Assembly: GCF_003018115.1 (NCBI RefSeq)
Contig: NZ_CP027457.1
DNA length: 64,000 nt
Source of the DNA: Escherichia coli
GTDB taxonomy: Bacteria; Pseudomonadota; Gammaproteobacteria; Enterobacterales; Enterobacteriaceae
Strand: one strand, 5' to 3'
Numbering within the stretch: position 1 is the first letter of the stretch; every line of letters starts with the position of its first letter. A program made the position numbers and the translations under genes. The notes under the pieces are model-generated. The model was not told the DNA's origin and did no database searches. It saw only the letters and a list, made by a program, of their open reading frames with translations. Positions 12,065-28,103 of this stretch are shown here, piece after piece.

Positions 12065-13660
12065 TTACCCTCGTGCCGCCAGTGCGGTGACTCTGTCGTA
12101 AGCGGAACCACTGCGCAGTACCTCAAGAACGGTTTGCGCATTGGCTTGCAGATCTTCATGGCCATGCAGGCGCATTAACATGGCGACGTTCGCAGCGACG
12201 GCTGCTTCATGGGCGGCGTCGCCTTTACCTTGTAACAAACGTGTTAAAATGTCACGGTTTTCTTCCGGTGTTCCGCCTGCCAGTTGCTCCTGGTGGTAGG
12301 GCGTCAGGCCAAAATCTTCAGCGGTCAATTGATAGCTCTTAATTTCGCCGTCATGCAGCTCGGCAACGATTGTCGGCGCGTGTAATGAAACTTCATCCAT
12401 CCCGCCGCTGTGCACCACCGCCGCGCGTTGATACCCCAGCACGCGCAAGGTTTCGGCAATCGGCAGCACCAGTTCCGGACTATAAACACCAATTAACGCC
12501 AGCGGCGGATGCGCCGGGTTAATCAATGGCCCCAGCACATTGAACAGGGTGCGGGTTTTCAGTTGCTGGCGAACCGGCATCGCGTGACGGAATCCGGTGT
12601 GATACTTCGGCGCAAAGAGGAAACAAACACCTAACTCATCCAGCGCCTGGCGCGATTTATCGGCGTTCATATCAAGATTAATACCGAACGCCGCCAGCAG
12701 ATCGGACGAACCAGATTTACTGGAGACGCTACGGTTGCCGTGTTTCGCCACTTTCAGCCCACAGGCCGCGGCGACAAACGCACTGGCGGTAGAAATATTG
12801 ATACTGTTGCTGCCGTCACCGCCAGTACCGACGATATCAGCAAACAGATAATCCGGGCGCGGGAACGGCGCTGCGTTTTCCAGTAGCGCGGTTGCTGCCC
12901 CGGCGATCTCGTTCGGGTGCTCGCCGCGAATTTTCATGCTCACCAGCGCCGCCGCCAGTTGTTCCGGCTTCAGCTCGCCACGCACCACCGCTGAAAACAG
13001 CTGGTGGCTTTCTTGTTGGCTAAGCGTCTGCGCCTGATACAGTTTTTCCAGAATCGGTTGCAGCGTGTTGGCTGGCTCTAGCTTCTGCTGCGCCCAGGCC
13101 AGCGTTTGTTCCAGCAGGCGAGCGCCCTGGGTGGTGAGAATGGATTCCGGATGGAACTGGAATCCACAAACGCGATCCGCATCGTGACGTACTGCCATCA
13201 CCATGCCATTAAAATGGGCGTTGATGGTTAAACCTGCCGGAATGTTACTGCCAACCAGCGAGTGATAACGCGCCACCGGCAATGGGTTTGTTAATCCGGC
13301 AAACATCGCCTGACCGTCGTGTTCAATGCTGGAGGCTTTACCGTGGAGAATTTCGCCCGCCTGACCGACATAGCCCCCGTAAGCTTCGACAATCGCCTGA
13401 TGACCGAGGCAAATGCCAATAATCGGCAGCTTACCGCGCAGGCGGGTAAGGAGTTCTGGCATACAACCGGCTTCACTCGGCACACCTGGCCCCGGAGAAA
13501 GCATCAGCACCGGATTGCTCATCGTCGCCAGGCGTTCAATTAAGGTTTGCGCCGGAATATGGTTGCGGTAAATCACCACGTTATGCCCATTGCTGCGCAA
13601 CTGATCTGCCAGGTTATAAGTAAAAGAGTCGATATTATCGAGCAGCAGAATGTCAGCCAT
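12065..13660 (-). CDS. trpD: Anthranilate synthase component II / anthranilate phosphoribosyltransferase
   Basis: 531 aa; [17 protein letters not shown]... Confidence 0.95.
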
Positions 13661-15222
13661 CAGAAAGTCTCCTGTGCATGATGCGCGGTGGCGATAGCGC
13701 GCAGTACAGCGCGAGCTTTATTACGGGTTTCGTCGGCTTCCGACTGCGGAACAGAATCAAGGACTACGCCAGCACCGGCTTGCACGGTGGCGATACCGTT
13801 TTCCACCAGCGCCGAGCGGATCACAATGCAGGTGTCGAGATCGCCATGCGCGGTGAAATAACCTACCGCGCCGCCGTAGCTGCCGCGGCGACGACCTTCA
13901 GCCTCGGCAATTAACTGCATAGCGCGTACTTTCGGCGCACCGCTTAACGTACCCATATTCATACAGGCGCGGTAAGCGTGCAGGGCGTCAAGATCGTGGC
14001 GCAGCTCACCGACCACGCGAGAGACCAGGTGCATCACGTAAGAGTAACGGTCAACTTTGGTAAGATCGGCGACGTAGCGGCTGCCGGGGGTGCAAATGCG
14101 TGCCAGGTCATTACGGGCGAGATCCACCAACATCAGATGTTCAGAAAGCTCTTTATGATCGGTACGCATTTCCAGTTCGATGCGGCTGTCGAGGTCTCTG
14201 TCCAGTGAACCATCGGCACGACGACCGCGCGGGCGTGTTCCGGCAATCGGGTAGATCTCAATCTGGCGGCTGGTGGCGTCATACTTGAGCGAACTTTCCG
14301 GCGACGCGCCAAACAGGGTGAAATCATTATCCTGCATAAAAAACATGTACGGGCTGGGATTACTCTTTTTCAGCACGTAATAGGCCGCCAGCGGTGACGG
14401 GCAGGGCAGAGAGAAACGGCGAGATGGCACCACCTGGAAAATTTCTCCGGCGCGAATCGCTTTTTGCAACAAACGCACTACGCCACCGAACTCTTCATCG
14501 CTCTGGTTACATTCACAACGCATATACGGCACGGAAACCACCGGCAGCGGTGGCGCGGTTTCGGTCAGTTGCTGGCGAAGATCGTTCAGGCGAGCAGTGA
14601 GACGCTGTTTTTCTTCTTCATTCGGAGCAAACAGACTGGCCTGAATGCGGGTGCTTTTTTTCTGATGGTCAATCACCATCAGCGTTTCAGCGAGATAAAA
14701 ACAGAAATCAGGGCAGTTATTTTCCGCTGACAGTTGCGGTAAATCTTCAAACCCCGCCACAAGGTCATAAGAGAACAGGCCGCCGAAGAACATTGCTTCT
14801 CGTTCTTCCTTCGGTACATTCAACATATTCTGCAATAAGCGGAAAGCGTCAAAAACCGAAAGGGAGCATAAGCGAGCGTCTTCATCCAGCAGTGGACTGA
14901 CAGGGGGGAAGCGCAGCACACGGCAGTTTGGTAATTGTTCATTTTCCACACCCGCAGGCAGGGCGTTATCCAGTAGTGTCAGCAGGGCTTCGCCGTTGCC
15001 GGAAAGGGACTGGATTGTGACAGTGTCACCTAATGCTGTAATGCGCAGCGCACTGTCTACCAGTAGCAGGCTTTTTAAATCATCTTTGCTGTCGATATCT
15101 GCGGATTCCAGCAGCAGCGTTGCCGGACGATCCCCACACAACTGGTGAAAAAGCGCGGTGGGATTGTCGCGATAAGCGCCTTCGCAGGTTAGCAGTTCGA
15201 GAGTCGGTTTTTGTGTTTGCAT
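13660..15222 (-). CDS. trpE: Anthranilate synthase component I
   Basis: 520 aa; [28 protein letters not shown]... Confidence 0.95.
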
Positions 15223-15243
15223 TGTTATTCTCTAATTTTGTTC

Positions 15244-15272
15244 AAAAAAAAGCCCGCTCATTAGGCGGGCTG
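15244..15272 (-). terminator. trp attenuator (3:4 terminator hairpin)
   Basis: - strand AGCCCGCCTAATGAGCGGGCTTTTTTTT between trpL and trpE. Confidence 0.9.
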
Positions 15273-15313
15273 GGTATCTGATTGCTTTACGCATGGTGAA
15301 TACACTGCCCGTT

Positions 15314-15358
15314 TCAGGAAGTGCGCCACCAAGCTTTCAGTACGAAAATTGCTTTCAT
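15314..15358 (-). CDS. trpL: trp operon leader peptide
   Basis: ATGAAAGCAATTTTCGTACTGAAAGGTTGGTGGCGCACTTCCTGA = [14 protein letters not shown] with tandem Trp codons. Confidence 0.9.
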   Translation of the reverse strand: [14 protein letters not shown]

Positions 15359-15379
15359 TGTCGATACCCTTTTTACGTG

Positions 15380-15422
15380 AACTTGCGTACTAGTTAACTA
15401 GTTCGATGATTAATTGTCAACA
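15380..15422 (-). promoter_or_regulatory. trp promoter with TrpR operator
   Basis: - strand TTGACA (plus 15415-15420), TTAACT -10, and palindromic operator CGAACTAGTTAACTAGTACG (plus 15386-15405). Confidence 0.9.
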
Positions 15423-15494
15423 GCTCATTTCAGAATATTTGCCAGAACCGTTATGATGTCGGCGCAAAAACATTATCCAGAACGGGAGTGCGCC

Positions 15495-16376
15495 TTGAGC
15501 GACACGAATTACGCAGTGATTTACGACCTGCACAGCCATACCACAGCTTCCGATGGCTGCCTGACGCCAGAAGCATTGGTGCACCGTGCAGTCGAGATGC
15601 GCGTCGGCACCCTGGCGATCACCGACCATGACACCACAGCTGCAATCGCGCCAGCAAGAGAGGAAATTTCACGTTCGGGACTGGCGCTGAATCTTATTCC
15701 CGGCGTGGAAATTTCCACGGTCTGGGAAAATCATGAGATTCATATTGTCGGGCTGAATATTGATATTACTCATCCGCTAATGTGTGAGTTCCTCGCGCAG
15801 CAGACAGAACGGCGCAATCAGCGGGCGCAGCTCATTGCCGAAAGACTTGAAAAAGCGCAAATACCTGGGGCGCTGGAAGGCGCGCAACGACTGGCGCAGG
15901 GCGGCGCGGTGACGCGCGGTCATTTTGCGCGTTTCCTTGTTGAGTGCGGCAAAGCCAGTTCAATGGCGGATGTCTTTAAAAAGTATCTGGCGCGCGGGAA
16001 AACCGGATATGTTCCGCCACAGTGGTGTACAATAGAACAAGCTATTGATGTCATTCATCATTCTGGCGGTAAGGCGGTGCTAGCTCATCCTGGGCGGTAC
16101 AATCTTAGTGCTAAATGGCTGAAAAGATTGGTTGCGCATTTTGCCGAACACCACGGCGACGCGATGGAAGTCGCGCAGTGCCAGCAATCGCCCAATGAAC
16201 GCACCCAGCTGGCGACACTTGCGCGTCAGCATCATTTATGGGCATCACAAGGATCTGATTTTCATCAGCCATGCCCGTGGATCGAACTGGGTCGTAAACT
16301 CTGGCTGCCCGCAGGCGTTGAAGGCGTCTGGCAGCTATGGGAACAGCCGCAGAACACCACAGAGAGGGAATTATGA
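15495..16376 (+). CDS. trpH: PHP-domain phosphoesterase TrpH/YciV
   Basis: 293-aa product if translation starts at TTG 15495 (LSDTNYAVIYDLHSHTTASDG...); the track's upstream extension overlaps the trp promoter. Confidence 0.8.
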   Translation: MSDTNYAVIYDLHSHTTASDGCLTPEALVHRAVEMRVGTLAITDHDTTAAIAPAREEISRSGLALNLIPGVEISTVWENHEIHIVGLNIDITHPLMCEFLAQQTERRNQRAQLIAERLEKAQIPGALEGAQRLAQGGAVTRGHFARFLVECGKASSMADVFKKYLARGKTGYVPPQWCTIEQAIDVIHHSGGKAVLAHPGRYNLSAKWLKRLVAHFAEHHGDAMEVAQCQQSPNERTQLATLARQHHLWASQGSDFHQPCPWIELGRKLWLPAGVEGVWQLWEQPQNTTEREL

Positions 16377-16993
16377 GCCAGTTTTTTTATATTCATCCTG
16401 ATAACCCACAGCAACGTCTGATCAACCAGGCGGTGGAGATCGTGCGTAAAGGCGGGGTGATTGTTTATCCAACTGATTCCGGCTATGCGCTCGGCTGTAA
16501 AATTGAAGATAAAAACGCCATGGAGCGTATTTGTCGTATTCGCCAGCTGCCGGACGGTCACAACTTTACCCTGATGTGTCGCGATCTTTCTGAACTCTCG
16601 ACCTATTCATTTGTCGATAACGTTGCGTTTCGTTTAATGAAAAACAACACGCCGGGCAACTATACCTTCATCCTGAAGGGGACGAAGGAAGTGCCACGCC
16701 GTCTGTTGCAGGAAAAACGCAAAACCATCGGTATGCGTGTGCCTTCTAACCCGATTGCGCAGGCGTTGCTTGAAGCACTGGGCGAACCGATGCTTTCCAC
16801 TTCGCTAATGCTGCCAGGCAGCGAATTTACCGAATCCGATCCCGAAGAAATTAAAGACCGTCTGGAAAAACAGGTAGATTTGATTATTCACGGCGGCTAT
16901 CTCGGGCAGAAACCGACAACGGTTATTGATCTTACCGATGATACGCCGGTCGTGGTGCGTGAAGGCGTAGGTGATGTGAAGCCTTTCTTATAA
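16373..16993 (+). CDS. yciO: L-threonylcarbamoyladenylate synthase-like (Sua5/YrdC family) YciO
   Basis: MSQFFYIHPDNPQQRLINQAVEIVRKGGVIVYPTDSGYALG...; 4-bp overlap with trpH stop. Confidence 0.9.
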   Translation: MSQFFYIHPDNPQQRLINQAVEIVRKGGVIVYPTDSGYALGCKIEDKNAMERICRIRQLPDGHNFTLMCRDLSELSTYSFVDNVAFRLMKNNTPGNYTFILKGTKEVPRRLLQEKRKTIGMRVPSNPIAQALLEALGEPMLSTSLMLPGSEFTESDPEEIKDRLEKQVDLIIHGGYLGQKPTTVIDLTDDTPVVVREGVGDVKPFL

Positions 16994-27731: not shown

Positions 27732-28103
27732 TTATCATCATTCTTATTACCCATTTTTAATGAATTAAAGGGCTTTTAATACACCGCAGCAATAACAGGT
27801 TGAGTTATCTCAACACAAAGTAATAACCGTTAAGGGTGTAGCCTATGATCAACACAAATATGAAATATTGGTCCTGGATGGGCGCGTTTTCTCTGTCGAT
27901 GCTCTTCTGGGCCGAACTCCTCTGGATCATTACTCACTGATCCTTGACCCCGCTGCGGCGGGGTTTTCATTTGCTTTGCCACAAGCTTTCTCCTCTTTTA
28001 TCAATTTGGGTTGTTATCAAATCGTTACGCGATGTTTGTGTTATCTTTAATATTCACCCTGAAGAGAATCAGGGCTTCGCAACCCTGTCATTAAGGAGGA
28101 GCT

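What the first reader, a model, noticed from the sequence alone, without database searches (positions are those of the whole stretch)
15380..15500. trpH start (TTG) lies back-to-back with the trp promoter and operator
The only in-frame start giving the canonical trpH product is a TTG at 15495, roughly 75 bp from the trp promoter -35 box on the opposite strand. Any trpH promoter must therefore overlap the trp promoter/operator, which raises the possibility of coupled or interfering transcription.
Basis: inference. Interest (0 to 1): 0.2.

Follow-up and report, generated by a model that had tools for sequence, protein, structure and literature searches.

The report
Back-to-back trp and rnm (trpH) promoters
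The RNase gene rnm (old name trpH) does start at a TTG 75 bp from the tryptophan-operon promoter, but it has its own conserved promoter that sits next to the trp promoter and operator without overlapping them, an ordinary arrangement at a textbook locus.

Summary
The window is the E. coli trp region. The rnm/trpH/yciV start is the TTG at 15495, and the trp -35 hexamer (15415-15420, minus strand) lies 75 bp away.

The inference that any trpH promoter must overlap the trp promoter and operator is only partly right. The 74-bp gap holds a complete sigma-70 promoter:
- -35 TTCAGA at 15429-15434
- 17-bp spacer
- -10 TATGAT at 15452-15457
- transcription start near 15463
- 32-nt leader, then SD GGGAG at 15484-15488

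Published SMRT-Cappable-seq data place the K-12 rnm-yciO start at exactly this point, 79 bp from the trp start. In 80 other Enterobacteriaceae species both hexamers, the SD and the TTG are conserved, and the TTG is invariant, while the leader is not.

The two -35 hexamers are 8 bp apart. The TrpR operator (15386-15405) lies at -58 to -77 of the rnm start, outside its core promoter. Only the upstream (alpha-CTD) zones of the two polymerase footprints overlap.

Direct TrpR control is therefore unlikely. Indirect coupling through supercoiling or polymerase competition remains untested. A separate antisense start inside rnm (15620, minus strand) is a more concrete source of interference. The finding is ordinary and low in novelty.

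The parts
15244..15337 (-). trp leader/attenuator RNA. The attenuator terminator hairpin is at 15271..15251, followed by a T run.
   Evidence: Rfam RF00513, 91.4 bits against a gathering score of 41; terminator scan.
15314..15358 (-). trpL leader peptide CDS (14 codons, including Trp-Trp).
   Evidence: Sequence; position equivalent to the RefSeq trpL annotation.
15384..15384 (-). trp operon transcription start (+1, A).
   Evidence: K-12 start at 1323108, reverse strand, in SMRT-Cappable-seq Supplementary Data 2 of PMC6131387. Its context is ...TTAACTAGTACGC-A. It maps to window 15384 through the alignment.
15386..15405 (.). trp operator: the 20-bp dyad CGTACTAGTTAACTAGTTCG, symmetric at 18 of 20 positions, centred at -11.5 of Ptrp. 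It lies at -58 to -77 relative to the rnm start.
   Evidence: Sequence. Mean identity is 0.94 (computed for 15387-15407) across 80 distinct sequences, the window plus 79 of the species loci. Its identity as the TrpR site is established knowledge and was not tested here.
15392..15397 (-). trp promoter -10 hexamer, TTAACT.
   Evidence: Sequence; identity 1.00 across species.
15415..15420 (-). trp promoter -35 hexamer, TTGACA (TTGACT in many genera).
   Evidence: Sequence; mean identity 0.91; variants listed.
15429..15434 (+). rnm (trpH/yciV) promoter -35 hexamer, TTCAGA. It is 8 bp from the trp -35 hexamer.
   Evidence: The only + strand sigma-70-like site in 15150-15650. Mean identity 0.90; the conserved block is ATTTCAG at 15427-15433. 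The 8-bp gap is found in 68 of 81 sequences; 3 more that score 14 are regex artefacts.
15452..15457 (+). rnm promoter -10 hexamer, TATGAT, with a 17-bp spacer.
   Evidence: TATGAT, TATCAT or TATTAT is found with a 17-bp spacer in 74 of 81 sequences (the window plus 80 species loci). Mean identity 0.94.
15463..15463 (+). rnm-yciO transcription start (about ±1-2 nt). It is 79 bp from the trp start, and the leader is 32 nt in this window.
   Evidence: K-12 start at 1323187, forward strand, for operon b1266|b1267. Context TATGAT-GTCGG-C. Mapped to the window through.
15466..15470 (+). A5 run in the rnm leader (A6 in K-12). This rare one-base deletion puts the upstream ATGs at 15453 and 15456 in frame with rnm.
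   Evidence: Alignment. The 60-mer with 5 A occurs in 3 of 5,421 genomes. The CDS is still called at the TTG.
15484..15488 (+). Shine-Dalgarno GGGAG, 6 nt before the TTG.
   Evidence: Sequence; mean identity 0.89, against 0.40 for the rest of the leader.
15495..16376 (+). rnm (trpH/yciV) CDS, RNase AM, 293 aa, TTG start. Its stop overlaps the yciO ATG (16373) by 4 nt.
   Evidence: The start is TTG in all 81 sequences (L072 by inspection).
15620..15620 (-). Secondary minus-strand transcription start inside rnm. It is antisense to rnm codons 1-42, the rnm leader and the rnm promoter, and reads on into Ptrp and trpL.
   Evidence: K-12 1323345, reverse strand, operon b1265|b1264|b1263. The same site appears as 1321369 in the older K-12 coordinates, assigned to trpL with a 263-nt leader, in Kim et al. 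2012, PMC3415461. Their 51-mer matches window 15620-15670 exactly.

Best explanation
Two separate sigma-70 promoters stand back to back in a 79-bp start-to-start interval.

Ptrp fires leftward from 15384 and carries the TrpR operator over its -10 region. Prnm fires rightward from about 15463, using TTCAGA (15429-15434), a 17-bp spacer and TATGAT (15452-15457). It produces a 32-nt unstructured leader, and translation starts at the TTG at 15495, helped by a well-spaced GGGAG. The transcript continues into yciO, whose ATG overlaps the rnm stop.

The core elements of the two promoters do not overlap, and the operator lies at -58 to -77 of Prnm. TrpR should therefore not repress rnm directly. rnm is expected to be a low-level housekeeping gene, with a weak -35 hexamer, a TTG start, and a GC-rich discriminator of the kind seen at growth-rate or stringently controlled promoters.

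Shown here: the positions of all elements, the K-12 transcription starts, and the conservation. Inferred: independence from TrpR, low expression as the reason for the invariant TTG, and any ppGpp or supercoiling sensitivity.
For: 1. One search finds TTCAGA-17-TATGAT (15429-15457) as the single + strand promoter-like site in 15150-15650.
2. (SMRT-Cappable-seq, PMC6131387, Supplementary Data 2; columns defined) gives the b1266|b1267 start at 1323187, forward strand. That is 5 nt after TATGAT and 33 nt before the TTG. The same table gives the canonical trp start at 1323108, which validates the coordinates.
3. Searches give a phylogenetic footprint across 80 Enterobacteriaceae species (protein identity down to 77%). 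Mean identity to the window is 0.90 for the rnm -35, 0.94 for the rnm -10, 0.89 for the SD and 1.00 for the TTG. It is 0.40 for the leader and 0.38 for the part of the trp spacer outside the operator. The spacer is 17 bp in 74 of 81 sequences.
4. The ATGs at 15453 and 15456 lie upstream of the mapped start and are out of frame in K-12. PGAP calls the TTG even in A5 genomes.
5. The leader has no significant structure (z = -0.10).
6. The 7 nt after the -10 hexamer average 73% GC, against 34% for the rest of the leader, in 80 species.
Against: - Only one experimental dataset supports the rnm start. It is absent from the parts of Kim et al. 2012 and Ettwiller et al. 2016 that are held, and it comes from K-12, not from this strain.
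- The mapped +1 is a C, which is uncommon.
- The promoter scan alone is not significant (1 site found, 0.6 expected).
- The conserved ATTTCAG block also falls at -43 to -49 of Ptrp, where an upstream A+T-rich enhancer of the trp promoter has been reported (recalled from memory, Nishi and Itoh 1986, not checked). Part of its conservation could therefore serve Ptrp.
- Independence from TrpR was not tested. The nominal polymerase footprints overlap by about 32 bp.
Confidence: 0.75

Rival explanations
1. One reading: the two promoters are functionally coupled. One route is that polymerase on Ptrp, with its alpha-CTDs, occludes the rnm -35 hexamer and vice versa. The other is that negative supercoils thrown back by trp transcription stimulate Prnm. 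Either way, tryptophan supply acting through TrpR would change rnm-yciO expression indirectly.
For: - The -35 hexamers are only 8 bp apart, and that spacing is kept in most species.
- Each promoter's -41 to -60 zone covers the other's -35 hexamer (coordinates; footprint sizes are established knowledge).
- Prnm has a GC-rich discriminator, a feature often linked to supercoiling sensitivity.
- Topological coupling of non-overlapping back-to-back promoters is documented for dmpR Pr/Po (PMC5175336).
Against: - No data were found on rnm expression as a function of TrpR or tryptophan.
- In the dmp study the coupling was not seen in E. coli, whose DNA stays more negatively supercoiled.
- The gap length varies from 7 to 9 bp, which changes the helical phasing.
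- The length conservation of an 8-bp segment is no stronger than that of the neighbouring leader.
Confidence: 0.2
2. In this strain translation starts at the in-frame ATG at 15453 or 15456, giving a 307- or 306-aa Rnm with an N-terminal extension.
For: The frame is open from 15414, and ATG ATG at 15453-15458 is in frame because of the A5 run.
Against: - Both ATGs lie upstream of the mapped transcription start and inside the -10 hexamer.
- There is no SD before them.
- They are out of frame in K-12 and in nearly all E. coli.
- The leader varies in sequence and length across species.
- The family model starts at residue 9 of the TTG-initiated protein.
Confidence: 0.03
3. The conserved blocks at 15427-15433 and 15452-15457 are upstream enhancer (UP-like) DNA of Ptrp rather than an rnm promoter, and rnm is transcribed from elsewhere.
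For: The block ATTTCAG lies at -43 to -49 of Ptrp and reads TGAAAT on the trp strand, which is A-rich. An A+T-rich upstream enhancement of Ptrp is recalled from the literature but was not verified here.
Against: - TATGAT lies at -68 to -73 of Ptrp, beyond the usual alpha-CTD reach, yet it is the best conserved block (0.94).
- The two blocks keep a 17-bp spacing.
- A capped 5' end maps 5 nt downstream of TATGAT.
Confidence: 0.04

Closest known systems
Back-to-back (non-overlapping) divergent promoter pairs, in the classification of Beck and Warren 1988 (from memory). An example is dmpR Pr / dmp Po (PMC5175336).
   Same: Two promoters fire outward from one short intergenic region, with no shared core elements and start sites tens of bp apart (79 bp here). 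The weak promoter faces a strong, regulated one.
   Different: Both promoters here are sigma-70 type. No coupling has been demonstrated. The gap between the -35 hexamers is only 8 bp.
Divergent operons with a shared operator, such as bioA/bioBFCD (BirA) and argE/argCBH (ArgR). This comparison rests on established knowledge.
   Same: A divergent gene pair sits next to an amino-acid or vitamin biosynthetic operon that has a repressor operator in the control region.
   Different: In those systems the operator overlaps both core promoters, so one repressor shuts both. Here the TrpR dyad overlaps only the Ptrp -10 region and lies at -58 to -77 of Prnm.
Symmetric bidirectional promoters that share a -10 region (Warman et al. 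2021, from memory).
   Same: Divergent transcription from one small region.
   Different: Those have start sites about 18 bp apart on a shared, symmetric -10 element. Here the starts are 79 bp apart and the hexamers are separate.
The E. coli K-12 rnm (yciV/trpH)-yciO-yciQ transcription unit and the trp promoter/operator/attenuator.
   Same: Apart from one deleted A (15466-15470) and one synonymous SNP, the aligned promoter-to-start region is identical to K-12. The CDS start is the same. Rnm is RNase AM, a 5'-3' exoribonuclease that matures rRNA 5' ends (PMC7261194).
   Different: Only the rare A5 allele, which opens the frame upstream without changing the annotated product.

Membership tests
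Sigma-70 promoter (Prnm) | -35-like and -10-like hexamers separated by 16-18 bp. | tested here: met
   TTCAGA (4 of 6), 17-bp spacer, TATGAT (5 of 6) at 15429-15457. The site is kept in 80 species.
Sigma-70 promoter (Prnm) | A primary (triphosphate) 5' end 5-9 nt downstream of the -10 hexamer. | tested here: met
   Cappable-seq start at K-12 1323187, with 5 nt between TATGAT and +1. This is literature data from K-12, not from this strain.
Sigma-70 promoter (Prnm) | Loss of activity on mutation of the hexamers, or RNAP open-complex formation. | not testable with these tools
   Needs reporter assays or KMnO4 footprinting.
Back-to-back divergent promoters | Opposite orientation, start sites separated, core elements not overlapping. 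| tested here: met
   The starts at 15384 (-) and ~15463 (+) are 79 bp apart. The hexamer sets 15392-15420 and 15429-15457 do not overlap.
Shared-operator divergent regulon (bio/arg type) | The repressor site overlaps the core elements of both promoters. | tested here: not met
   The operator at 15386-15405 overlaps only the Ptrp -10 and start region. It is 23 bp away from the rnm -35 hexamer.
TrpR regulon member (rnm) | TrpR- and tryptophan-dependent change in transcription. | not tested
   No dataset or paper was found.
RNase AM / Rnm (PHP-domain 5'-3' exoribonuclease) | Full-length match above the curated cut-off of the equivalog model. | tested here: met
   NF047791 RNaseRnm, 505.7 bits against a cut-off of 375, residues 9-282.
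Trp operon leader (Rfam RF00513) | Covariance-model score above the gathering score. | tested here: met
   91.4 bits against 41, at 15244-15337 on the minus strand.
Stringently controlled (ppGpp/DksA-sensitive) promoter | GC-rich discriminator between -10 and +1. | tested here: met
   GTCGG in E. coli. Across 80 species the 7 nt after the -10 hexamer average 73% GC, against 34% for the rest of the leader.
Stringently controlled (ppGpp/DksA-sensitive) promoter | Short-lived open complex, or a fall in transcription on ppGpp induction. | not testable with these tools
   The ppGpp RNA-seq paper I looked for is not held.

The most novel reading that the evidence does not exclude
The conserved 79-bp back-to-back geometry and the GC-rich discriminator of Prnm could make rnm-yciO transcription respond to trp-operon activity. 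The routes would be transcription-driven supercoiling or polymerase competition, together with the antisense promoter at 15620 that reads through Prnm into trpL. Tryptophan starvation would then tune an rRNA-maturation RNase without any TrpR site on its promoter.
Probability: 0.12. Interest if true: 0.4.

Novelty: already known. Interest (0 to 1): 0.13.

Why it matters
This mainly serves as a correction. A 75-bp gap is enough for an independent promoter plus leader, so closeness to a famous operator does not imply shared control.

It also records three points. The old name trpH is misleading, because the gene encodes RNase AM and shows no sequence sign of TrpR control. Its weak TTG start is invariant across the family. 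A rare one-base deletion in this strain creates a spurious longer reading frame that annotators should ignore.

If coupling with Ptrp were ever shown, it would be one more example of topological promoter coupling, at one of the best-studied loci in biology.

Tried and rejected
- **Literature on a trpH/yciV promoter or on TrpR control of it**. Nothing relevant turned up; the 'TrpH' hits were tryptophan hydroxylase or cryptochrome radicals.
- **Other transcription-start datasets.**
  - Ettwiller 2016 supplements hold no entry in the region.
  - The ROSE in vitro set has none.
  - No supplements are held for the Rend-seq annotation paper or Conway 2014.
  - The Shigella M90T tables have no hit.
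  - The stored part of Kim 2012 lists only the antisense start, and there is no Klebsiella start for KPN_01258.
- **Papers not held:** Khodursky 2000 and the ppGpp RNA-seq paper.
- **RNA structure in the rnm leader:** none (z = -0.10).
- **Upstream ATG start:** rejected, as set out under the rival explanations.
- **Promoter scan of 15500-16450:** it found no consensus site for the two intragenic starts. The same scan also misses the textbook Ptrp, because TTAACT lacks A at position 2, so its negatives carry little weight.
- **Spacing between the -35 hexamers as evidence of coupling:** the conservation of the 8-bp spacing is not clearly stronger than the length conservation of the adjacent leader, so I did not use it as evidence.

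Full report
**What the window is.** The region is the E. coli trp control region. On the minus strand:
- trpE is at 13660-15222.
- The Rfam Trp_leader match is at 15244-15337, 91 bits.
- The attenuator hairpin is at 15271-15251.
- trpL is at 15358-15314.

On the plus strand, rnm (old names trpH and yciV) is followed by yciO and yciQ. The 471 bp around the finding match 5,421 of 5,426 complete E. coli genomes at 95% identity or more, and the annotated features under the match are always rnm, the Trp leader region and trpL.

**Check of the observation.** The TTG at 15495-15497 opens a 293-aa frame ending at 16376.
- RefSeq places the rnm CDS at the equivalent base in K-12 (b1266, 1323220-1324101) and in strain Combat11I9.
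- The product is an RNase RNM equivalog: 505.7 bits against a cut-off of 375, with the model starting at residue 9.
- Reading the minus strand gives the canonical TTGACA (15420-15415), a 17-bp spacer, TTAACT (15397-15392), the 7 nt AGTACGC, then +1 A at 15384.
- The 20-bp operator dyad is at 15386-15405.
- From 15420 to 15495 is 75 bp.

One detail was missed. In this window the frame is open back to 15414 and holds in-frame ATGs at 15453 and 15456. This is due to a one-base deletion, five A at 15466-15470 where K-12 has six. The exact 60-mer spanning this run, with five A, occurs in only 3 of 5,421 genomes, and in the two of them checked the CDS is still called at the TTG.

**Where the rnm promoter is.** Three lines of evidence agree.
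- *Consensus scan.* It finds one plus-strand sigma-70-like site in 15150-15650: TTCAGA (15429-15434), 17-bp spacer, TATGAT (15452-15457). Alone this is not significant, with 0.6 sites expected by chance.
- *Published start-site mapping.* SMRT-Cappable-seq Supplementary Data 2 (PMC6131387; columns defined) lists operon b1266|b1267 with a start at 1323187, forward strand. The same table lists the trp operon start at 1323108, reverse strand. The trp value is exactly the textbook +1, which validates the coordinates. The rnm value falls 5 nt after TATGAT and 33 nt before the TTG in K-12, which is window position ~15463.
- *Conservation.* In 80 other Enterobacteriaceae species, from Escherichia and Citrobacter to Buttiauxella, Klebsiella and Raoultella, with Rnm identity falling to 77%, the same layout recurs. 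Per-column identity to the window is shown below.

| Segment | Mean identity to window |
|---|---|
| rnm -35 hexamer | 0.90 |
| rnm -10 hexamer | 0.94 |
| Shine-Dalgarno | 0.89 |
| TTG start | 1.00 |
| Rest of the rnm leader | 0.40 |
| trp spacer outside the operator | 0.38 |

The -35/-10 spacer is 17 bp in 74 of 81 sequences. The start codon is TTG in all 81; the one apparent exception, L072, was an offset error and reads TTG.

**Geometry.** The two transcription starts are 79 bp apart and the two -35 hexamers are 8 bp apart (68 of 81 sequences; range 7-9; three values of 14 are regex artefacts). The operator lies at -58 to -77 of the rnm start. No core promoter element or operator base is shared.

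Taking the established -55 to +20 footprint of RNA polymerase, the two footprints would overlap at about 15408-15439. Each promoter's alpha-CTD zone therefore covers the other's -35 hexamer. This is my inference and was not measured.

So the statement that any trpH promoter 'must overlap the trp promoter/operator' is too strong. The promoters abut, in the ordinary back-to-back class of divergent promoters. They differ from shared-operator pairs such as bioA/bioB or argE/argCBH.

**Translation start.** Several points favour the TTG.
- It has GGGAG 6 nt upstream.
- The ATGs at 15453 and 15456 sit inside the -10 hexamer region, upstream of the mapped start, with no SD.
- Those ATGs are out of frame in almost all E. 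coli.
- The leader varies in length and sequence between species.
- The leader RNA shows no structure beyond chance (z = -0.10).

**Most likely mechanism.** rnm-yciO is read from its own weak sigma-70 promoter and translated from a weak, invariant TTG. The yciO ATG at 16373 overlaps the rnm stop, which suggests translational coupling.

The 7 nt after the -10 hexamer are 73% GC on average, against 34% for the rest of the leader. A discriminator of this kind is typical of growth-rate or stringently controlled promoters. That would fit a gene whose product, RNase AM, trims the 5' ends of 5S, 16S and 23S rRNA (PMC7261194). This regulatory reading is inference only.

Direct TrpR repression of rnm is unlikely from the geometry. 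Indirect coupling, by polymerase competition or by negative supercoils generated by trp transcription as in the dmpR Pr/Po pair (PMC5175336), is possible but has no supporting data. I found no paper on a TrpR or tryptophan effect on rnm.

**A more concrete source of interference.** Two independent K-12 datasets report a minus-strand start inside rnm.
- Yan et al. 2018 give 1323345, as operon b1265|b1264|b1263.
- Kim et al. 2012 give 1321369 in the older K-12 coordinates, assigned to trpL with a 263-nt leader.
- Their 51-mer matches window 15620-15670 exactly, which places the start at 15620.

The upstream sequence reads TTGCTG, 18-bp spacer, TGgTGTCAT, a weak extended -10-like promoter by my reading. 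This transcript is antisense to the first 126 nt of rnm, to the rnm leader and to Prnm. It then runs through Ptrp and the operator into trpL. It is face to face with Prnm over about 158 bp. Its strength and any effect are unknown.

**Comparison and verdict.** Every element here is either textbook (Ptrp, operator, attenuator), standard annotation (TTG start), or already in public high-throughput data (the rnm start). What this analysis adds is descriptive:
- the promoter assignment with its phylogenetic footprint;
- the invariant TTG;
- the GC-rich discriminator;
- the rare A5 allele.

The finding is real, its interpretation is partly right, and it is of low interest unless coupling is shown experimentally.

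Noticed in passing
window 15620 (- strand), promoter region about 15627-15662: A secondary minus-strand transcription start lies inside rnm and is reported in two K-12 datasets. It is antisense to the rnm 5' end and to the rnm promoter, and it reads on into the trp promoter and trpL with a 263-nt leader. It may interfere with rnm or give TrpR-independent entry into the trp leader.
   Followed up: partly
window 15466-15470: This window has a run of five A where K-12 and almost all E. coli have six. The exact 60-mer with five A occurs in 3 of 5,421 complete genomes. The deletion opens the rnm frame upstream to 15414 and puts two ATGs in frame, a trap for gene callers.
   Followed up: yes
window 15495-15497 and loci L003-L082: The rnm start codon is TTG in every one of 80 other Enterobacteriaceae species, although the bases just upstream are only about 46% conserved. 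This suggests selection for a weak start codon.
   Followed up: partly
window 15458-15464 and loci L003-L082: The discriminator after the rnm -10 hexamer is GC-rich in composition (73% against 34% for the rest of the leader) but not conserved in sequence. This hints at stringent, growth-rate or supercoiling control of an rRNA-maturation RNase.
   Followed up: partly
window 16028-16039 (+ strand): An internal start for yciO lies inside rnm (K-12 1323764, which is window 16039), preceded by TACAAT at 16028-16033. Shimada et al. 2014 separately list an internal RpoD-binding site between yciO and yciQ.
   Followed up: partly
window 16373-16376: The rnm stop and the yciO start overlap as ATGA, which suggests translational coupling of RNase AM with the TsaC/Sua5-like YciO.
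   Followed up: no
window 6404-6589 (- strand) and about 6687-7283: Rfam finds C4 antisense RNA and isrK, both prophage-type RNAs. The adjacent DNA matches the ends of 'PPompW' and Stx-converting prophages, where it is annotated as a duplication caused by insertion at ompW. A lambdoid prophage end therefore seems to lie at the left of the window.
   Followed up: partly
window 27772-27974 (+ strand): Strong Rfam match to the enterobacterial sRNA STnc180 (203 bits).
   Followed up: no
window 15392-15420 (- strand): The consensus promoter scan does not report the textbook trp promoter, because its -10 hexamer TTAACT lacks A at position 2. Negative results from that scan elsewhere in the window should be read with caution.
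   Followed up: yes
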